DNA of 62,979 nt, filler included, from Kipferlia bialata (lineage: Eukaryota), in the NCBI GenBank assembly GCA_003568945.1. It is 6 parts of 6 records of this genome, joined end to end, with 100 filler letters (N's around TTAATTAATTAA, not from the genome) between each part and the next. Parts side by side here need not be neighbours in the genome. Positions count along the whole stretch, not along the records: positions 1 to 10,805 come from BDIP01000862.1; 5 more parts are not named here. One strand, 5' to 3'. A program made the translations under genes and the position numbers. Under the pieces are notes generated by a model. It searched no databases. It saw only the letters and a list, made by a program, of their open reading frames with translations, and was not told the origin of the DNA. Shown here piece after piece: positions 1-40,139 of the stretch (position 1 is its first letter; each line of letters starts with the position of its first letter).

Positions 1-303
1 CTTTTTGGGTTTTTTTTTTTTGGTCCCCCCCCCCCCCCCCCCCCCGCTGCTCCCGCGTATACATCATTAATATGTATGATTCTAGACATGCATTCATATC
101 CATGTGTGTGGGTTTCTATGTATGGATAGTGCCTTTCCACTCACAGTATTGTTCATCCTTCCTAACACCTCTGTCTCTTCGCTGTGGGATATATGCCTTT
201 TGCTCCATAGTAATCCTGTCAGGTCCATCACCTTGCTTACAACTCCCCCCCCTCTCTCTCCCTCTCTCCATAAATATATACATATTTACGCCCTCATTCT
301 CAG

Positions 304-363
304 GTACTTGGGTTTGGAGGTGCCATGTGGGCATTCACGGGTCTAGTCTTCAAGAGACAGGTA

Positions 364-395
<32 letters not shown>

Positions 396-1248
396 TCTCT
401 CTGAATACAATCTTCCTTACATCTGTATTCTGTCCATATTTCCAGTATACCTAGCGCTAAGAAGCATTAGTCATATACATTGATACATTTAGATATATAT
501 ATATATACGCATATAATCAACATAGCTAGTGCTGTTTGTTTCTGCATGTCTTCTTCCTCCCCCCCCCCCCTCAGTACCCCCGTAATACCAGACCGATCGC
601 ACTCCCAGAAACGTCGGTATATATGTTTCCTCCTATACACTATCTCACACTTTTCACATTGTACTATATACTCTCACTTATCCACCCGTTACTGTCAGGC
701 TGATACAACTGGCTGGAAGGTCTTCTATGTATGCACCCTGGTCTTCACCATGCCAGCATTCATACAGGTAGTATATAACTCTATATATAAGTGTATATAT
801 TTATGTTGCTCACTCTCGCCCAATCTCAGTGTATGTACCCTGCTCTTCGCCTTACCAGTACTCAGGCAGTTTCAGAATACACTGTGTTCATTATCACGCA
901 CTCTACTCTACTACAGTTGTTCCTCACTGTGCCAATATAATATAGTATATATGTGCGATGTAGTATATCCCACCTTCCGTTACACTTTGCAGTGTTTCTA
1001 ATACACACGACGTCACTCACCCCCAGAAACAGCTGGCCGCCCACCAGAGTAGGACGCAAGATCAAAAGAGAGTGGATGTTACTGAAGTAACATCTAAGAG
1101 AGAGGGAGTGGATACACCATCAGAGAGAGAGGCGGAGCGAGAGAGAGAGAGCACTGATGACGAGGATGCTGATCCTGATCCCTCACCCATACCCAATGAG
1201 TGCTTAATTGGTGACTGCATATGCCTAGATGAGGCTGATATCAAGTGA
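304..1248 (+). CDS. 3' part of a spliced multi-pass membrane protein of unknown function
   Basis: GT-AG exons give hydrophobic segments (VLGFGGAMWAFTGLVFKRQ; ADTTGWKVFYVCTLVFTMPAFIQ; EYTVFIITHSTLLQLFLTVP). The last exon 1027-1248 is open (KQLAAHQ...ECLIGDCICLDEADIK*). Confidence 0.6.
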
Positions 1249-1509
1249 ATACATGTAGAGACAGAGAGATCCTGACCCATCGCCCATACCTGATGAGTGT
1301 CTCATTGGGGACTGTATTTGCATTGAAGAGAAGGATATGGAGTAATTATATGTTTCGAGAGGCCTCTGCCTCTAGTGGAGATTGTGTACGAATAGATAAT
1401 GATGTTTTGTGGGAATATAGTATTGAAGTGTATGTATTTATATAGAGACAGAACCTTTGACAGCAGTGTCTCACAGGCATGTAACTACTATTTACCTCTA
1501 TTGAATTAT

Positions 1510-4500
1510 CAGTGTCTGGCAAACATATGGATGCAAAGTGAACCCACATGCACTCTCGACTACTGCACGCTCTGCAGCATCTTCTCCAACACCGACTCAA
1601 AGCTCCTCAGTTGCAACAACTTAGCCAGTCGGATAAGAGCCCTCACAAGGGGAACAACACATGTGCTAATGAACACATGGCATTGCTATAGGTCAGATCG
1701 TAAAGAGAGAGAGAGAGACAGAGGTGTACTATGTGAGTGTGGCTAGAAGCTATACCTTCACGGCACTCCTCTCTCCTGTGCCGTTGAACCTAACGCTACG
1801 TGTGTCAAACGTCCCTTGACACCTGTTGTTCCCAAGAGTGCTGTAGTGAGAGAGAGAGCTACCTAGTGACTACCGTAAAGGGTATATACTGATATGAGTA
1901 CACTAGGTATCTGATAAGGATAGGAGGAATCCTTTTCAATAGTAGACTGGTATTATAGTAGTAAGAGGAGAGTGGTTATCGACGTTATCTTAACGTAATA
2001 CAACGTTTAATGCACTCACCTCCTTCTGTTATGTACACTGGTGAGGGCCACTATACCCCGTAGTAATAGAGACTGACATGTGGCTGTTGGACAGTCAGGA
2101 CTTGTAAGGACACTTGGAAGTACTTCTTCTACCTGATGGTGGGAATATAACTATACTATAAACTCTAAACTATGATAGAGTTTGGGTTTCCAAATACATC
2201 ATTAAGTGTAATTACTTTTTTAGACCAGTAGCGCAATGTACATACCATTGGTCTTGCTAGCTCCATGGCCTCTTGGCGCTCTGACTCAGACAGTGACTCG
2301 TACCAGTCACAGAACATGCCGACCTGGGTAAAATTGAGAAATCCCAGAGAATCAATGAATCGCTACTTCATAATTCACATGAAGTTGAATGACTATGAGT
2401 CATAGTCTATGACTACTCAACAGAAAATCGGTTGCAGAATACAGAGTAGAGTATACTTAGTATAAATATGAGTATTACGACTATCTTCACCTCAATTGTC
2501 AAGGAGAGAATTTCTGGCACATTTGTGTTGCGTTGAAGTCTCCTCAGCAAAGAACACATTCCCATAGGCAGTCCTTCTAGTAGACCGCTCTCTTTGGCCA
2601 CAGTTAGTGTGATTCTTCAATGAGAGTCTAATGGGAGAGAATGGGAGAGAGAGAAGTGTACGTATCAGGAATGTGACTCTCGTGCAATAACACACACCAA
2701 CACATCCTGACAGTCATTCATGAACAGACACTTAATGACAACAAGGAATGTATGGATTCTTACCCGCTGACATGCGACGCCTTCGGAGGTGAGTGATGGA
2801 GTATCCCCAATACTTCGTCCTTCAAACCCTGTGACACACCTGTAATCAGTTGGAGTAGACTGCTGTTGTTCCACCAGATAGCTACACGACATGTAAATAT
2901 AATATACTTACGGAATATATATATGTGGCCCTGATTCTACTTTCACCTACCTGGGACAATGCATGTCGACACAGCGATGAGCACAGCTGCGAGTGCCTAG
3001 TATTAATACAGAGTCGCACGTGAGCATTGACGTGCGATCAAGAGTTTTCCATACCATGTGTACACTCATGTATCGGAGTCCCCCTGTACTAGCTCTCAAG
3101 GACGATACAAGGTGGTAGGTCTTATGGAGCACTGCAAGTGCATTCTCCGCACCAATTACGTTAGAGTTCAATCCCTGCTGTCAAAGAACGCTATGCTATA
3201 TTCTACGAGTGAGTATGCAACTCTTCAATGGCTAAAGAGTACGTAACTTCTCGACTAGCAGAAGAAGGGATACTAGAGACAAAGTCACCTTTAGTGTCAA
3301 GATGTATCGTCCCAATATCTTTGGACTGACATTGCAAGCTTCAAACCTGGATATGTCAGATAGAACCGGTACATATACGGTATATGTAACATATACCATA
3401 GCGTTGTACTCTTTCACTCAGTGATTGCAAATACTCTTATAATAAGAGGACCTAGGTGTTAAATCAACCCTGTTAATCGTACATACCCGAGTGTTTGGTA
3501 GACGAATAGCAAGGCAGTCTCTATGCCTCGCCCGTGACTCTGGGATAAGAATTCAATTATGCTGATCCTCTCGTATGTACATAGTGATCCTTATAGGATA
3601 ATAATGATGACAAGAGTTACAAGGTCTCCTACCTTGAGGTCTAACAGTCTTGTATCAAACTCTGTGTCGGACACAAACTGGTTCAAGGACTCCCTAGAAA
3701 TGAGTTGTTCTTTATAGTTCTTTCGACTCGTTTTCGATGAAACAGGTGTCGCATACTTTCAAGTGATTCACTATTCAAACTGCTATACCATACTAACATA
3801 GTATGATTATCCATTCTCACCTGGTCCGTGGGTCACCTATGTCCCGACGATACATGTACAGGAAGTCCTTAACACTGGCCTTGAGGTAAGAATGTACACC
3901 AAATTGTGCGTTACGTTCAAAGTAGTCTCTTCATGCAATGCCACTACTTCCTCACCTTAGAGACAGTATGTGAATTGGCTCTAAACACACCAGTCGGCAT
4001 TGTCGGTATCCACTGTGGGTGTGTCCTGACAAGCGGCAGGAGGGAGAAGTAACCGTCCTCTTCTATGCTTGTCTTAGTAATCAAACAGATAGTATCCTTG
4101 ATAGACTGCTGATTACGAGATACACCTAGGCTGGATCATCCAGCCTGGATGTCATATTGTCACAGAGAAATCAAACATAGCCATGAGGAACTCGGTGGTG
4201 GTACCTCTGCCGTTTTCTACTTCTGCGTAACACCTTCATATGCTGTCGATGCCAGAATATGGTACACACTCCACGGTTCTGGAATTGGAATTCAAGTATA
4301 GAAACAGTGCTACTGGAGACAGTAAGTGATGTAGTGCAACATGTGGGCCCCTGTATACATATACTGAGGTGTAAGTACTGTGATGCATTACCGTAAGGGG
4401 CCGTCTGTCTGGAGCCCGTGTTTCGACATAGAGCATCCATCCGAAGTGGAAGGGAAACTGAAGGAGTGAGTACTACTGTACTTACGTGGAAACCATTTCC

Positions 4501-7245
4501 AGTGACTAGTATTGGTGACGCCAAAACATACCTGTTTGTTGTGTATTTGAACAGTCAATGCCGCCACTGCAGAGTTCTGGAACGGTACGGACGGCAGTTG
4601 CATGACTTGCTATCGGGTCAGATACTGGTTCTCATGTTAGGCCTGTTCAAATGATAGAACCCACGAGATACTGGAATACATACTGTTTCTCATGATATTC
4701 AGTAGTGGAACCTGATTCTTCATGAGGTATGTCCTGACATCTGGCAGCATCATGTCAACATGGCGCAACCAGGGCCCATGGGGCTGAGATCAGCGAACAT
4801 TCAGAACAACACAGAAGAATGACGCTAAATGAATAATGCAGAGATATTGAATGATTATACACTAGACAAACCTCATAGTTCCCCAGAAAGAGAAGCCGGA
4901 ACCATGAGTCTGTGACAACGATACACATCCGTTGGGGGAACTGCACATATGGGGCATAAGGATTAGCAAGTGAATCAGAGCATCATTATCTGTATCATTA
5001 TCATAATACTAGAACACGAACTATGACACATTAACCACAGTCCGATTGGTTGGATTGCTATGTGTGCGTTATAGATGTAACTAGTGTGTGTATATGTACC
5101 GAAGTGTCTACCGATACCATTATTATACACTATATTTTTAGTATATACAATATTTGTGTTATATATATTAGTACTCCTACCTGGAAGCACCTAACTAGCC
5201 TTGATACAGAAGGGGCCCATGGGGCAGGCCATCTGTGGGGTCAGCATCTAGTGTATGCACACATATTCATGAGAGTGATTTCAATTGTGACTCTGACAAA
5301 TTGTGTGAATACCTCAGTGTATTGATTGGTTGTGGTGGAGTGTATGGAACACTGGGCACTTTGTATGCAGGGAGCATGTCTGACTTGTAGAAGCACTGGG
5401 ATACTGGCAGCCACCGACTATCATCTACGTCCTTCAGTCAGAAATTTTTGTGTCATTGGCAAATATGCATGCTGCAGTATGATAATGCAGAAAATGGCAA
5501 GACACACGTTCATTTCCATACCTCTGGAGAATAGGGAATAGTGTGGCAGGAACGATCCAAGATCCTCTGAGACACCAGATGGTACCGACAGAGCATCAAT
5601 GCATCATGCAAACTGGAGAATTAGCGGTATGTCTATCACCATTCATATGGCTCAGGCACAGACTGTATATTCTGGAATATGGTATAGGATTGTGTTTTAC
5701 TGTACCTCTGTTGTCGTGTGTCTTCTGTCATCTGAGCCAGCAACTGATAGAGTTCCCCTGAGTTAGGAGACTACATAAATTTAAGTCTTAAAAGAGTCTA
5801 CATGAGTCAGGTAACATGACAGTCTTTAACCGAGCCGCTTTGCTTGTAACATCTGCATGGTACCTGCTGCACTATAGACTGCCAGATTGTGTCCAAGCGG
5901 AACAATGTAGGGCACCTTCTTCAGATAGCGTCCTGTATGTCTCTTGCCGGCTTCTCTATACCACTTCCTAATGTTAGGCCTAGTGAATTGAATGTTTTCG
6001 AATTCTAGAGTACCGTCAGAGACTATATACACATACAACGTACTTAGTCCTTTGCATTCTGTGTGGGCTAATAACGTGGCTGTAGAGCAGCGGAAGGACT
6101 AACGTTGGTGCACAAGAAGTTAAATCCCAGAGTGCCTGTTGTTGGAGCATGTAGATACACATATTTGCAATGCACCTGGTCTGTGACTCTAGTCTACGTC
6201 CTACTCGATTCTTCATTATGAATCGGTGGGGTGTATCTATGACACTAATAATTGACTACTGGGGAATGGTTGACCTTGTATACTTCTAATAGAATGTATA
6301 TTTATATATAGTATGTCAATCTTAGTACCTTGCTGAAGACCGATATGCGAGGCAACACAACAATGTCAAAATCGTGTGGTACTTGATCGTAGGCCCTCAA
6401 CCCTGTTGGGAAGAGTGCTCTCAATATCTGGAGTGGGATAGTCCAAAGATGAAATTGTACCAAACACAAGACAACTATCTCAATGTGTAAATTGTTTTAA
6501 CTAGATTGAATTGTAAATTGTTGTATATATGGGATAGAGTATTGACCTGCAAAGACGAAAGTGGTGCGTCGTCACTGTTGTGGCCACCGTAGAGCCACTG
6601 CAGAAGTCGGAATATATCAGAGTGGTCTCTCAAGTGCATGGGACATCGCTGGCAGTAAGACAACTCATATACAGAACACATGTAGTTGATGAGGAGTTAC
6701 CTCAGCTTCCATGACATCTTTAAGTTAAAGACTTTAACCCTATGTCCCTCTAGCATGTTTGCAAGGGCAACTACTACCGGGTCTGGAACACTCTGCTTCA
6801 GAAGCAGTACCATGCACAACAGGATGTGGATAGGCAACAGACACACAGGTGTGGTCATAGCATATGCTTTTCTCTCTTGGTAATGCCATATGCGTCTGAG
6901 GGTTTCATATACCACCAGTATAGTCTGTAGCATTGTCATAGTGATGTAGACTACCATCATAGCAAGCATGGCACATGGACTCAACCTAGTTGTGAGAGAG
7001 CTCGGTTGAGATCTTGAATCTCGTACGTGGACTAAAGTTGTAGTAGTAGAACAGTTTGAAGCCACTGTGAGGCAACAGAGTCACACATACCTGGCACGAT
7101 ACCTCCCTAACAGACGTCTCTCTCTGTGCAAGTGCCTTTGTTCGTGCATTTACCACCAACTACACAGACACAAAGTCAAATACTGTGAGACTATTCAGGT
7201 GTAGAGTGACTACTATTGGCACTTAGTAGAGTGAGAGGTATTCTA
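1510..7245 (-). mobile_element. Decayed intron-containing gene, probably a Mutator/MULE-like DDE transposase pseudogene
   Basis: Minus-strand exon remnants occur in MULE order: YIVSDGT (~6020, candidate first catalytic D), LMLCRYHL (~5590, CxxH motif), SCNCRPYRSRTLQWRH (~4560-4610, SWIM-like finger with the last Cys lost). Many in-frame stops. No TIR, TSD or catalytic E found by eye. Confidence 0.45.
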
Positions 7246-7568
7246 TGGTGCGCACTGTAAGGTATACTGTATACTCAACAAGGAACACAGATACCGTAGT
7301 ATTTGTGCACTAAGGTCTACTAAGTTTACAGTATGTGTATCTATTCTGACGTCGTTATATCATTGTCATTAGTGAATATGCTTGCACTACTAAGGGAGGG
7401 GAAGAATGGTAGAGAACACTGATGGCGAGAGAGACACATCACCTCAGTTGTTGTGCAAATCTATTGAAATAGACAATCGTCTATACACCGCTAGTGAATA
7501 TAGTGAAAACTGCCAACTGATTGCCAGAAGATTCAGGATCTCTCAGCGTCTAGAATGTCACTTCTGCC

Positions 7569-7615
<47 letters not shown>

Positions 7616-7616
<1 letters not shown>

Positions 7617-7938
7617 TACTGAATGTCTGCTGGGCCAATGCCCTCCCCACCCTCAGAGCGAGGACCCCTAGGGTGAGGGTATAATGAGTATATATATATT
7701 GATAGTATACAAGGGTAAGCCTATCATGTATGAACCACATATGCTCTACCAGATGCCATATATACCAATATTGCATCATACTATAGGCTAGTAACTTACA
7801 ATAGGAATGACTAATAGTATATATCACCCAAACAGTGAACGAAGCTAGGGTATACGTGCCATGCAACATGTATATTTGCTACGGTACAATGACCGTACCT
7901 AGGTGTCTCCCCTTTGGCAAGGGAGGTCTCCACAAGCC

Positions 7939-7977
<39 letters not shown>

Positions 7978-10159
7978 TATAGTCTCACAGACTCTACTCT
8001 GCTAATAAAGTACAAACATAGTACCTAGGCGTCTCCCCCTTGGCAAGGGAGGCAGAAGTATCCTTAGACATGTATATATATGTGTGTGATTCACACTGTG
8101 AATGTGCATATAGTCTAACTACTAAACTCAGAAATAAGAGTACAACCATAGTACCTAGGTGTCTCCCCCTTGGCAAGAGAGGCAGAGGGCATCACAGAGG
8201 AGGACATGGGACTGCTGAGAATAAGGGTGTAGAGGGAGAGAGGGAGTGGGGGAGGGAGAGAGGGGGACCGTACCTGTCACTGTAGCTGTCTGAGTAGCTG
8301 CTCTCACTCTCCCGGGGTGACCTGGAGGTAAATGTATATTGATACATAAATATAATTATACATCTATACGTCTTCAATACCAACACAATATATTCTCTTC
8401 AGTACCTTGGCGACATTGACATTGACATGTCTGCCCTCTTGGCTAGATAAATGTAACCTCATCTATATAATACAACCTCCATAAGTAGTACCATAAGTAG
8501 TACAAATATATAATTATAGCTATAGCTATAGTAAAGCATGGATCATACCTAGGTGACATTGACATTGACATGTCGTCTCTGTCGTCTGATAGCCTGTCCC
8601 CATCAGAGTACTCATCACCCTCCTTGCCACCCTGGGGTCATTGGATATCATATACAATTATATACCAGCCGATATCATTAGAATACATTAGGGGTAGTAA
8701 TAGAATAGGGAGGTACGATGAAGTCACTCATCACCCTCCTTGCCACACTGGGGTCATTAGAATAAGGCACGTACTCATTAGAATAAGGATCAGGATCATT
8801 GGAATATGGATTACCGTATCATAAGATAAGTGTAATAAATCATGTACTGGAGAGTGATGCCGTCTGAGAAATGATCATCATCCTTGCCACCTGAGGGTAT
8901 TAAGAGGGACAATGCTTACATACATACGTAGGGATGTGGTAAAATGCAACTATACAGTACCATATTTCTATAGAACACAGATATACCAGTATGGAGTGTC
9001 TTTATGAAGCTATTTGATATATATATCATGAATATATGAACATACACACCTCTGACTGGGGCAGGTAGTCTGTCATGTATAACATTTGTATATATATATA
9101 TGTATCAATCAGGAAATGTATATATACAATGCATATATATACATCTATCTTATATATATATATATCATGAGTACACACACCTCAGACTGGGGCAGGTAGT
9201 CTGTCAGGAAGGACACAATGCCACGGTGCTGGAACCTAGAGGGGTGAGAACTACGCGGTAAAGAACACAACTCATCTACATGATTTACCTAGCAGCAGCG
9301 TGGATTGGCTGCCACCCATCGACGGCTCTCTTGTTGGGGTCTGCATTGCCCTCCTGAGGTGTAACATGCTGAATTGTGCGTGACATTTAATGCTACTCGA
9401 TGTGTGACAAGCTGTCCTTACCTGGATGAGGACCTTGACCACGTTGAGGAATCCGTTCTGGGCAGCGAAGTGCATGGCGGTGTAGCCACCTGGATGTGAA
9501 ATACATATTAGTAATACAATTGCAAAGAAATATTAACAAGATATCCATTATAACGAAGAAGGGTATATATGTATATTAAGGGTGCTGTACCTGAGAACTC
9601 AGCGTCTGGGTTGACAAGGTCTCTGCCCTGGGTGAGAGAGGGAGAGAGAGAGGGAGGGATAGAAAGCCAAAAATGCCGAGGATAGATATATGGTAACATC
9701 ATTCATAAGATGATGAGAGAGAGAAGAACCGACCACCCACCTGTCTCATGAGGAGCCTGACACACTCCACATTGCCAGTCTCGGCAGCCTGGGGGTGAGA
9801 GGGGAAAGGGTCAGACAGATACATCACGGATTTGTAATAGAACATATGATATTCAATAATATGACATGTATTCGGAGAATAGTAAATATGTATACATACC
9901 TTGTGCAGGGGTGTGAGTCCCTCGTCATCCACTGCATCTGAATCTCTCTCTCTCTATATATATATGTGTGTGTGCTATACACACATAGTCATGCCCATGT
10001 GTGTATATACATATACCTCGTGCAGGGGTGTCAGTCCCTCATCATCCACTGCATCTGTACTTGTATATCCATCTATATATCTCTCTCTATATATATAGAT
10101 ACATACGTATATATATGTAGATACACCTTGTGCAGGGGTGTCAGTCCCTCGTCATCCAC

Positions 10160-10201
<42 letters not shown>

Positions 10202-10767
10202 ATCTAATATATGTATTACCTATGTATATATACACATGTATATACATACCTTGTGGAGTGGTGTCAGTCCCTCGTCATCCACTGCATCTGAATCTCCACA
10301 TCTCTCTATATATATATATATGTGTGTGTACTATACATATATAGTCATGCCCATATGTGTGTATAAATATATATGTATATGTGTATAAATATACCTTGTG
10401 GAGTGGTGTCAGTCCCTCATCATCCACTGCATCTGGGTCCGCATCGGTCTCAGACAGAAGGAGTCTAGTATGAGTGTGTATATACTATATATATATATAT
10501 ATTTAATACACTATAATACTATATACTATCTATCTAAATCTATATAAATATCTATATCTATATATATATATACTGCATCTGAATCGGCATCAGTCTCAGA
10601 CAGCTAAAGTCTAGGGTAAGAATAGAAGAGTATAATATACTAGTGTGTCAGTCTTCATATGCATTTATATATACATTTATACATATATATTATATATATA
10701 TATATACATATCCATACCTCACAATGTCTGAGTACCCTCCCACACATGCGTAGTGCAGAGGGGTCCA
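7616..10767 (-). CDS. Ankyrin-repeat protein with Ser/Asp-rich tail (5' end lost at contig break)
   Basis: Spliced exons: WTPLHYACVGGYSDIVR|LLLSETDADPDAVDDEGLTPLHK|AAETGNVECVRLLMRQ|GRDLVNPDAEFS|GGYTAMHFAAQNGFLNVVKVLIQ. These carry TPLH/TAMH ankyrin motifs. Stop at 7616-7618. Confidence 0.85.
9900..10611 (-). repeat. Exon-echo array: four copies of the 3' half plus donor and one copy of acceptor plus 5' half of ankyrin exon ~10395-10464
   Basis: GATGCAGTGGATGAYGAGGGACTSACACCMCTSCACRAG|GT recurs at ~9900, 10017, 10127, 10250 and 10395, separated by TA-rich spacers. Confidence 0.95.
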
Positions 10768-10805
10768 GTATAACATATATATGTATACATACATAAGTAC
10801 TATAT

Positions 10806-10905
10806 NNNNNNNNNNNNNNNNNNNNNNNNNNNNNNNNNNNNNNNNNNNNTTAATTAATTAANNNNNNNNNNNNNNNNNNNNNNNNNNNNNNNNNNNNNNN
10901 NNNNN
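10806..10905. other. Artificial contig linker
   Basis: 100-nt N run containing TTAATTAATTAA (stops in all six frames). Confidence 0.97.
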
Positions 10906-38948: not shown

Positions 38949-39163
38949 TGTGGTAAGAGGGATAGTAGTACATACATATAAATGCAGAGAGAGAGAGATG
39001 TTATCTATTGAGTGATGGGGACAGGTATGTCACATCGACTGCAGGTCCTGTGGTAAGAGGGATAGTAGTACATACATATGAATGAGAGAGGTTAATTATT
39101 GAGTGGTCCTGTGGTGAGAAAGACGGAGGGGGGGGGGGGGAGGAGAAAAGAATAGAAGAGACA

Positions 39164-39263
39164 NNNNNNNNNNNNNNNNNNNNNNNNNNNNNNNNNNNNN
39201 NNNNNNNTTAATTAATTAANNNNNNNNNNNNNNNNNNNNNNNNNNNNNNNNNNNNNNNNNNNN
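39164..39263. other. Artificial contig linker
   Basis: N run containing TTAATTAATTAA. Confidence 0.97.
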
Positions 39264-39355
39264 CCCCAGGTCCCCCAACCCAAAACCCCCCCCCCCCCCC
39301 CCTCTCTCTCTCTCTCCAATTCATATCTATAGTATGTCTCTCTCCCTCACTCTAG

Positions 39356-40139
39356 GGCCTCTCTTGCTGCCAAGGCCGGTGTCAGTCCGGATCGTGTCTC
39401 TGTCTCTGTGTATGACCCTGTCCACACCGATGCAGACAGGGCACTGATGCAGAGGCTGGGGGTGGGGGTCAGTGGGGTCACAGACTGCACACTCAAGGGG
39501 GGGGAGGTGAGGGACCTGTCTGTCGGGCATATCGACAAATCTTTGTACTATCTCTCTCCCTCATTATTATATAATGTTTGTTTAGAGACCTGCTCCTCAC
39601 CCCAGCCCCTGCCCACCCTTGTGTACATGCCACACTGTCCCCTTGCCCTGTATGCATCCATGGTCAAGAGTGCCAGGGGGGTATCAGATGCACTACCATC
39701 AGTGTCTAGTGTATCAGATACCCTACCAGTGCCTAGTGCAACCCCTGGCCTATGGCTCTTAGGTAATGACCTTGGCCCTGCCTGTGACAGGGTGCTGATG
39801 AGGCATAGGGGGGCAGGGTCAGACAGTGTGGGGGGAGAGGCAGGGGGGTGGACACTGGTGGGCAAGAGAGGTGGGGGTAGGAAGGGGAAGGGGAAGGGGA
39901 GACACCCATCGAAGGCCAGGTTCAGTGCCAAGACAGAGGCAGAGGGAGGGAGAGAGAGAGAGAGATCCAGGCTCATGAAGGAGAGTGCCCTGTACCTGTC
40001 TGAGGTACCTGCCAGTGTGTGCTATGCATACAAGGAGGGACAGAGACCAAGGGGGGAGGGGCAGGGAGAGAGGGCATCTGCAGTGAGGGATGTATTGGAT
40101 ACAGCTCTCTCCAACACTGCCCTGTCCCACATAGGGTAG
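39356..40139 (+). CDS. SRR1-like domain protein, 3' part
   Basis: VYDPVHTDADRALMQRLG, PTLVYMPHCPLALY, LLGND and ALSNTAL match SRR1-family motifs (yDPvF, lfymPHc, iGN, aFnDta). Confidence 0.75.

What the first reader, a model, noticed from the sequence alone, without database searches (positions are those of the whole stretch)
1171..1405. Echo after a stop codon keeps protein sequence and stop position
Seen: the last 78 nt of the CDS (1171-1248, DPDPSPIPNECLIGDCICLDEADIK-TGA) recur 19 nt later (1268-1345) as DPDPSPIPDECLIGDCICIEEKDME-TAA. Nine codons are synonymously changed, the replacements are mostly conservative, there are no indels, and the stop is at the same position with a different codon. 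A third decayed copy (GDCVRID) lies at ~1377-1400. No splice site is involved and the copy is behind a stop. Inference: this separates echoes from splicing and favours DNA-level swapping or capture of alternative C-termini.
Basis: partly seen in the sequence, partly recalled or inferred. Interest (0 to 1): 0.85.

Follow-up and report, generated by a model that had tools for sequence, protein, structure and literature searches.

The report
Displaced gene end behind stop codon
In the free-living protist Kipferlia bialata a gene's last 25 codons and stop are repeated, apparently untranslated, in the tail of its own mRNA; it is one of dozens of nearby exon-end copies whose differences from the working exon are silent far more often than a dead copy should be, likely because DNA repair copied in pieces from a diverged working allele and pushed the old pieces aside.

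Summary
The echo is real. Bases 1171-1248 recur at 1268-1345 with no indel: 9 synonymous codons, a TGA/TAA stop swap and 6 replacements. One DNA contig and two RNA-type contigs (one spliced, one with a poly(A)-like tail at 1408) run through both copies, so copy 2 lies in the 3' UTR. The gene is K. bialata KIPB_004154, an orphan. Two in-frame AGs precede copy 2 but lack the branch motif of true acceptors. No RNA or DNA contig skips copy 1; no sign of ongoing swapping. The third copy is not established. The echo is not a special case: the window holds 59 clusters of local repeats, mostly an exon end plus unrelated filler. In a second gene, 23 echoes differ from the live exon five times more often at 4-fold than at 0-fold sites (CI 3.0-9.1; a dead copy allows at most 2), even copies without an acceptor; a separate set of 24 repeats this. 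Best reading (0.45): break repair copies from a diverged working allele and leaves the old piece beside the new. No second allele was seen, so the source is inferred.

The parts
304..360 (+). Internal exon of KIPB_004154; the public model starts at the ATG at 325, but the RNA contig has 175 more bases upstream that did not lie on 150-2600
   Evidence: X2 record 9 piece 302-352, record positions 176-226; P0001; translation
361..698 (+). Intron, GT..AG, with the branch motif close to the acceptor
699..767 (+). Internal exon, hydrophobic segment
   Evidence: X2 record 9 piece 696-764; P0001
768..1026 (+). Last intron, phase 0, GT..AG, branch motif present
   Evidence: joint 764>1024, GT..AG at cut +3
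1027..1408 (+). Last exon: CDS to 1248, then a 160-nt 3' UTR made almost wholly of the echo(es)
   Evidence: X2 record 9 (1024-1380) and X3 record 15 (1134-1408), 0 differences each
1171..1248 (+). Copy 1: live C-terminal 25 codons and TGA
1249..1256 (+). First 8 UTR bases, part of the repeated core (matched by 1346-1353)
   Evidence: family D2
1257..1267 (+). 11-nt GA-rich spacer, unrelated to either flank; holds the in-frame AGs ending at 1258 and 1264, both without the branch motif
1268..1353 (+). Copy 2: echo of 25 codons, TAA and 8 UTR bases; transcribed in the 3' UTR; translation not shown and inferred not to occur
1376..1417 (+). Possible third, older copy; not statistically established; runs past the poly(A) site
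   Evidence: protein P=0.031, nucleotide P=0.57
1408..1408 (+). Poly(A) site (one contig); the genome is not A-rich after it
   Evidence: X3 loose end of 14 letters, nearly all A

Best explanation
Copy 2 is a transcribed, likely untranslated duplicate of the gene's C-terminal 25 codons and stop in the 3' UTR, likely left when DNA-break repair copied the gene end from a diverged but working allele and joined it, with a few filler bases, in front of the old end. Shown: both copies are in DNA and in the mRNA, there is no usable acceptor, and the window-wide class carries a silent bias that untranslatable copies should not have. Inferred: one broken end copies across the exon end from the homologous chromosome (or another working version), lets go, and is joined by homology-poor end joining to the other end, which still carries the last 25-90 bases. 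The two copies then differ at birth like two working alleles, mostly at silent sites. Only events spanning a donor, acceptor or stop leave the protein intact, so these are what survive. Repeats of the event push older copies outward, where they decay. Which copy here is the newcomer is not determined. It is a one-off evolutionary scar, not a switch.
For: Locus: pN 0.14 against pS 0.68, no indel, stop kept; a copy-dead-from-birth simulation gives 6 or fewer amino-acid differences in 0.5-2.5% of about 3,300 matched runs per setting. Class, with frames from the public model P0005, set independently of the echoes: in 23 nearest echoes, 59 synonymous versus 33 non-synonymous differences against 40 synonymous expected (P 4.5e-5 at kappa 2, 1e-3 at kappa 8). 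4-fold sites 40 of 160, 0-fold 26 of 516, ratio 4.96, bootstrap CI 3.0-9.1, where a dead copy allows at most 2; 3.7 (2.4-6.5) without CpG sites. Live CpG changed in 2 of 22 0-fold sites but 14 of 20 degenerate sites (P 8e-5), in a window with CpG o/e 0.38. Donor-side copies show it too (31/17) although only 3 of 11 have a good acceptor, as in background (175 of 716). Replicate with heuristic models, 24 of 34 other clusters: ratio 4.9 (2.7-11.7). In arrays the nearest copies are 20/6 and the outer ones 19/21 (P 0.02, not independent). Spacers do not align to either flank (z up to 2.0 in 17 of the 18 cases examined; the 18th has no spacer). Context: the genome paper infers diploidy from two k-mer peaks (PMC5874029, passage); metamonads lack Ku70/Ku80/DNA-PKcs and Fornicata lack Rad51A but keep two Dmc1 (PMC8516963, section 8).
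Against: No second allele was seen: one DNA contig with no variant letters over 559-2600, and the X3 contig (another sample) is identical over 275 nt. P0001 and P0005 each form a one-member cluster with no allelic or paralogous relative; two metagenome scans found no relative. The model needs alleles about 20% apart at 4-fold sites, and 6 of 8 such sites differ here, which is extreme. Spacers are more AT-rich and simpler than echo-free introns (P about 0.01), which fits new filler better than an allelic intron. For the farthest copies the excess is weak (P 0.009 at kappa 2, 0.07 at kappa 8). The single-locus P does not survive correction for 59 clusters.
Confidence: 0.45

Rival explanations
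1. Plain dead duplicate: staggered-break repair duplicates a short core with filler from the same chromatid; only the live copy is under selection, and the extra silent bias comes from uneven mutation or from picking the best of many echoes.
For: The core-plus-filler anatomy and survival at donors, acceptors and stops need nothing more. This echo is the extreme of 59 clusters. Outer copies (19/21) fit this null. An earlier AI report on a sea urchin gene reached this reading (e1-9861148, unchecked).
Against: The null caps the 4-fold/0-fold ratio at 2; observed 4.96 and 4.9 in two separate sets, 3.7-4.0 without CpG-prone sites. CpG at 0-fold sites is barely decayed (2 of 22). By reasoning only (not simulated), gene conversion either way or collapse by deletion does not lift the ratio above 2.
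Confidence: 0.2
2. Both copies are used: in a minority of molecules one repeat unit is cut out between the direct repeats (in DNA, or in RNA without GT-AG), so the echo or a hybrid is translated and stays under selection.
For: It explains the silent bias, the preserved CpG and the stronger bias in the copy nearest the live exon. Removing 97 nt here would give a clean alternative C-terminus.
Against: No joint skipping one unit among the contigs laid (X1 329, X2 45, X3 1); the DNA contig at depth about 420 is unbroken and both RNA contigs keep both copies. At 74% identity recombination should be inefficient (general knowledge). Contigs drop rare forms, so a minor route is not excluded.
Confidence: 0.15
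3. Alternative last exon, now or in the past: splicing from the donor at 768, or from a GT inside the last exon, to the AG at 1258 or 1264 gives a protein ending in copy 2.
For: Both AGs are in frame with copy 2, as are phase-0 GTs at 768, 1072, 1078, 1087 and 1108. RNA depth is low (13.9 and 2.4), so a minor isoform would be missed.
Against: Neither AG has the TNAY-N1-5-YAG motif found at 34 of 37 annotated acceptors and at all 3 acceptors of this gene. No such joint. Acceptor-less echoes show the same bias, so this is not needed.
Confidence: 0.12
4. One copy came from a paralogous gene rather than from an allele.
For: It would account for the high divergence (74% identity). The same 108-aa protein is annotated twice, on two contigs.
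Against: That second annotation is identical, not diverged. No other protein with this C-terminus at E up to 1e-3 among 1.84 billion representatives (the one other hit is a low-complexity ant protein), nor. Echoes at 22 of 38 exons of another gene with no paralog found cannot all come from paralogs.
Confidence: 0.08

Closest known systems
Direct repeats flanking filler DNA after double-strand-break repair, as proposed for intron gain in Daphnia, Aspergillus and Drosophila (PMC3296678, passages read)
   Same: A duplicated core on both sides of unrelated inserted sequence, at gene-structure junctions.
   Different: Repeats here are 25-86 nt (the paper screened for 5 bp or more), include the splice site or stop, enlarge existing introns or the UTR instead of making new introns, occur at over half the exons of one gene, and carry a silent-site excess. 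Canonical NHEJ is reported absent in metamonads (PMC8516963, section 8).
Tandem exon duplication giving mutually exclusive exons or alternative last exons (recalled; PMC3342872 seen only in a search listing)
   Same: Adjacent homologous coding copies with protein-level conservation; here the stop is in register.
   Different: Copy 2 has no consensus acceptor and is retained in the 3' UTR; most echoes are partial exons with one splice site.
One-sided invasion, or SDSA finished by end joining, with a homologue as template (recalled; the term had no occurrence in the 20 papers listed)
   Same: Predicts a short tandem duplicate with one homologous and one non-homologous junction and allelic differences between the copies.
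   Different: Known from induced breaks in model systems; here it is inferred from sequence statistics and would be a pervasive natural scar.
Silent-cassette antigenic variation (trypanosome VSG C-terminal exchange) and integrase-mediated replacement of a gene's 3' end by prophages (both recalled)
   Same: A displaced or spare gene end, diverged at silent sites, next to the working one.
   Different: No mobile element or cassette array here; only 11-19 nt lie between the copies; no DNA variant was seen; the same pattern occurs at internal exon ends.
Ciliate internal eliminated sequences with pointer repeats (recalled)
   Same: AT-rich spacer between direct repeats within genes.
   Different: The unit is retained in the bulk DNA and in the mRNA, and the repeats are long and diverged.

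Membership tests
Alternative last exon by tandem duplication | Functional 3' splice site in front of the second copy | tested here: not met
   AGs at 1258 and 1264 are in frame but lack the motif present at 34 of 37 annotated acceptors
Alternative last exon by tandem duplication | Transcripts spliced into the second copy | tested here: inconclusive
   None in X2 or X3 contigs; depth low, contigs drop rare forms
Alternative last exon by tandem duplication | Protein-level constraint on both copies | tested here: met
   pN/pS 0.21; dead-copy simulation P 0.005-0.025, post hoc
Programmed DNA swapping or elimination (cassette, IES) | Rearranged DNA form present in the culture | tested here: inconclusive
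   No joint; unbroken contig at depth about 420; rare forms invisible in contigs
Programmed DNA swapping or elimination (cassette, IES) | Expressed mRNA carries only one copy | tested here: not met
   Both RNA-type contigs hold both copies
Stop readthrough or frameshift extension | Downstream copy reachable in frame; stimulatory RNA structure | tested here: not met
   Offset 97 puts copy 2 in another frame; readthrough ends after 8 codons; copy 2's frame has a TAG at 1256-1258; folding z 0.81
Break-repair tandem duplication with filler | Direct repeats separated by sequence unrelated to the flanks | tested here: met
   17 of 18 cases examined, z up to 2.0 against both flanks; here 86-nt core and 11-nt spacer, too short for a strong test
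Break-repair tandem duplication with filler | Pre-insertion allele without the unit | not testable with these tools
   No genome held; no relatives found
Inter-allelic capture (homologue as template) | Copies differ like working alleles even where one cannot be translated | tested here: met
   4-fold/0-fold ratio 4.96 and 4.9; donor-side 31/17
Inter-allelic capture (homologue as template) | A diverged allele exists that matches one of the copies | tested here: inconclusive
   Locus shows no variant in X1 or X3; diploidy only from the paper's k-mer peaks (PMC5874029)

The most novel reading that the evidence does not exclude
Kipferlia renews its exon ends and gene ends genome-wide by pasting in pieces of other working versions of the same gene, or uses either copy by cutting between the direct repeats. 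Introns and 3' UTRs would then be a layered archive of former working alleles, ordered by age from the live exon outward, and this would be how an intron-rich fornicate without canonical end joining grows its introns.
Probability: 0.3. Interest if true: 0.88.

Novelty: new variant of a known kind. Interest (0 to 1): 0.62.

Why it matters
Short duplications with filler are a known product of break repair, but dead copies should not look as though protein selection had acted on them. Here they do, in two separate sets within 63 kb, at over half the exons of one gene. If the allele-capture reading holds, one genome records extinct or unsampled alleles and the order of their replacement, and gives a direct test of how breaks are mended in a lineage reported to lack Ku and Rad51A. 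It also bears on why K. bialata is intron-rich among intron-poor relatives, and warns that gene models here may pick the wrong copy. The post-stop echo is the clearest single example, not a separate C-terminus-switching system.

Tried and rejected
No whole genome was held, so echoes could not be counted genome-wide and copy 2 could not be searched against the assembly. No listed run is on record as RNA; X2 and X3 are guesses, though splicing and a poly(A)-like end mark those two contigs as mRNA-derived. Reads were laid only on 150-2600, so which copy is live at other echoes rests on the public AUGUSTUS model (PMC5874029, section 7) or on my heuristic models, not on RNA seen here. Protein identity: Pfam gave no family for P0001 or the single exons (one sub-threshold hit, E 0.11); the Atlas gave no usable hit by features and only weak structural rows for a model of pTM 0.21; homologue searches returned nothing or the protein itself. 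The Cys-rich tail's function stays open. Two metagenome scans: 355 and 61 pattern matches, none confirmed. Readthrough or frameshift: rejected on frame, stops and folding. A Hexamitid-type code with TAA/TAG as Gln: not pursued, as the model P0005 ends at a TAG. CpG hypermutation as the cause: 15 of 59 silent changes are CpG transitions, but the excess remains without them. The pattern match to three copies is circular (pattern made from them) and is not counted. Other post-stop echoes: of 45 pairs sharing an in-register stop, only this one ends on a gene end that I could identify. Literature searches listed no paper describing these echoes; PMC5874029 has 0 occurrences of 'duplicat' and 'alternative' in its main text; its supplements were not read, and the library lacks most subscription papers.

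Full report
Observation. The last 78 coding bases of an ORF (1171-1248) recur at 1268-1345. Of 26 codons, 10 are identical, 9 synonymous, the stop is TGA in one and TAA in the other, and 6 are replacements; there is no indel, and differences fall 5/2/13 on codon positions 1/2/3. The repeat extends 8 nt past the stop (86 nt, 74%), leaving an 11-nt GA-rich spacer. The proposed third copy is weak: P=0.031 at protein level and 0.57 at nucleotide level.

The gene and its transcript. The last exon matches P0001 at 100%, which sources name Kipferlia bialata KIPB_004154 and KIPB_000608, one sequence on two contigs. It is an orphan with hydrophobic segments and an acidic, Cys-rich tail; no family was found. 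Of three runs laid on 150-2600, X1 gives a 7037-nt DNA contig covering 559-2600 without differences; it may be the source of this DNA. An X2 contig is spliced (introns 361-698 and 768-1026) and runs to 1380; an X3 contig, from another sample, covers 1134-1408 and ends in a non-templated A run. Both copies are therefore in one mRNA, and copy 2 is 3' UTR. No joint removes copy 1 in DNA or RNA and no variant letters were listed. These are contigs, so rare forms are invisible, and RNA depth is only 13.9 and 2.4.

Could copy 2 be reached? Readthrough of the TGA stays in another frame and stops after 8 codons; copy 2's frame has a TAG at 1256-1258; the region folds no better than shuffles (z 0.81). 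But acceptors here have a branch motif close to the AG: 34 of 37 annotated ones match TNAY-N1-5-YAG, against 23% of 535 background YAGs, and neither candidate does.

Is the silent bias more than chance? For this locus pS is 0.68 and pN 0.14. Simulating a fully constrained copy 1 and a dead copy 2 gave 6 or fewer amino-acid differences in 0.5%, 2.3% and 2.5% of matched runs at kappa 2, 4 and 8. As the best of many echoes, that alone would not survive correction.

The class. A diagonal scan found 121 local repeats, 59 clusters after dropping those under 38% GC. Most are 25-60 nt covering an exon end plus its donor or acceptor, with a median offset of 104 nt in the second gene. In 17 of 18 cases examined the spacer aligns with neither flank (z up to 2.0), even where the core is identical over 43-44 nt; one case is a plain tandem unit. 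Spacers are more AT-rich and simpler than echo-free introns (23 versus 16; P about 0.01). I mapped the public model P0005 (KIPB_004161, 1250 aa) to 40 pieces, merged one mapping artefact and dropped one doubtful 17-nt piece, leaving 38 exons. 37 echo copies lie at 23 of them; 34 copies at 22 exons remain after dropping hits under 20 nt. Taking the nearest copy on each of 23 exon sides: 59 synonymous and 33 non-synonymous differences, against 37-44 synonymous expected if only the live copy is constrained (P 5e-6 to 1e-3). At 4-fold sites 40 of 160 differ, at 0-fold 26 of 516: ratio 4.96, CI 3.0-9.1, where the dead-copy model allows at most 2. Without CpG sites it is 3.7 (2.4-6.5), and live CpGs changed at 2 of 22 0-fold sites against 14 of 20 degenerate ones. 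Of 6 echoes with alignment gaps, 4 have only multiples of three. The 11 donor-side copies give 31/17, yet only 3 have a good acceptor, the background rate, so they are unlikely to be translated. A separate set with rough gene models, 24 of 34 clusters modelled and some surely wrong, gave 26/18 (P 0.02-0.09 by count) and ratio 4.9, CI 2.7-11.7. Against: farthest copies give 56/45 (P 0.009 at kappa 2, 0.07 at kappa 8). In arrays, nearest copies are 20/6 and outer ones 19/21 (they share the live copy).

Mechanism. Survival explains where echoes lie: a duplicate spanning a donor, acceptor or stop leaves the protein intact (inference). It does not explain the silent excess. By reasoning, conversion between copies or collapse by deletion leaves the ratio at 2. 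So either both copies are used, or they differed at birth because one came from another working version. Use is not seen at this locus and is structurally unavailable to acceptor-less copies by normal splicing. I therefore favour capture: a broken end copies across the exon or gene end from a diverged homologue and is joined, with filler, to the other end, which still holds the old piece; repeated events push older pieces outward. The genome paper infers diploidy from two k-mer peaks (PMC5874029; abstract, term passages and section 7 read). Metamonads are reported to lack Ku70, Ku80 and DNA-PKcs, and Fornicata to lack Rad51A while keeping two Dmc1 (PMC8516963; passages and section 8 read); that Dmc1 favours homologues and tolerates mismatches is recalled. 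The weak point is that no diverged allele was seen: this locus shows no variant, neither protein has a near relative, and no environmental relative was found. Confidence 0.45; plain dead copy 0.20; low-level use by excision between repeats 0.15; alternative last exon 0.12; paralog donor 0.08.

Known kinds and novelty. The anatomy is that of break-repair duplications with filler (PMC3296678, passages read), but with longer repeats, high density and a selection signature. It fails the tests for an alternative last exon (acceptor) and for programmed swapping (the mRNA keeps both copies). Fused branch-point and acceptor motifs are described for diplomonad introns (PMC6679479, passages read), in line with the acceptor motif found here. 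Searches listed no description of these echoes; supplements were not read and the library is incomplete. An earlier AI report on a sea urchin gene (e1-9861148) explained a similar bias by one-copy selection; that null fails on this genome's data.

Verdict. Observation confirmed, third copy doubtful. The interest lies in the class that this echo exemplifies. New variant of a known kind; interest 0.62.

Noticed in passing
window 10806-10905, 24986-25085, 39164-39263, 53336-53435, 60584-60683: N runs around a TTAATTAATTAA linker: the window is a chain of separate contigs. The gene studied lies on the piece 1-10805; 25086-39163 is 14078 bases, the contig length given for KIPB_004161.
   Followed up: yes
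window 37244-37636, 37714-38197 and 34449-34630, minus strand: Arrays of acceptor-side echoes in which the copy nearest the annotated exon keeps an intact branch motif and AG. How splicing skips them, or whether it does, is open.
   Followed up: partly
window 9882-10440, minus strand: Five tandem copies of a roughly 40-nt exon end with donor, encoding an ankyrin-like motif (motif recalled, not tested); spacers are partly alike, suggesting later whole-unit expansion.
   Followed up: partly
window 30133-30654, 34812-35400, 29367-29731: Further three- to five-copy echo arrays inside KIPB_004161, suited to ordering copies by age.
   Followed up: partly
window 25461-38945, minus strand (P0005): The C-terminal part has motifs that recall a HECT ubiquitin ligase (recalled); Pfam found no family at E 0.01.
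   Followed up: partly
window 56758-56943 and 59421-59598: Very young echoes: cores identical over 44 and 43 nt, separated by 98 and 92 nt of low-complexity spacer unlike either flank; the best places to study the birth mechanism.
   Followed up: partly
window 39333-40136 (+) and 59673-60443 (-): SRR1 domain (PF07985, E 2.6e-10) and weak Kelch hits below the curated cut-off.
   Followed up: no
P0001: The same 108-aa protein is annotated on two contigs (KIPB_004154 and KIPB_000608), yet only one DNA contig covers the exons at 970-1051 and 1216-1379; perhaps an assembly redundancy.
   Followed up: no
whole window: CpG is depleted (observed/expected 0.38; 0.33 in the annotated coding sequence).
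   Followed up: partly
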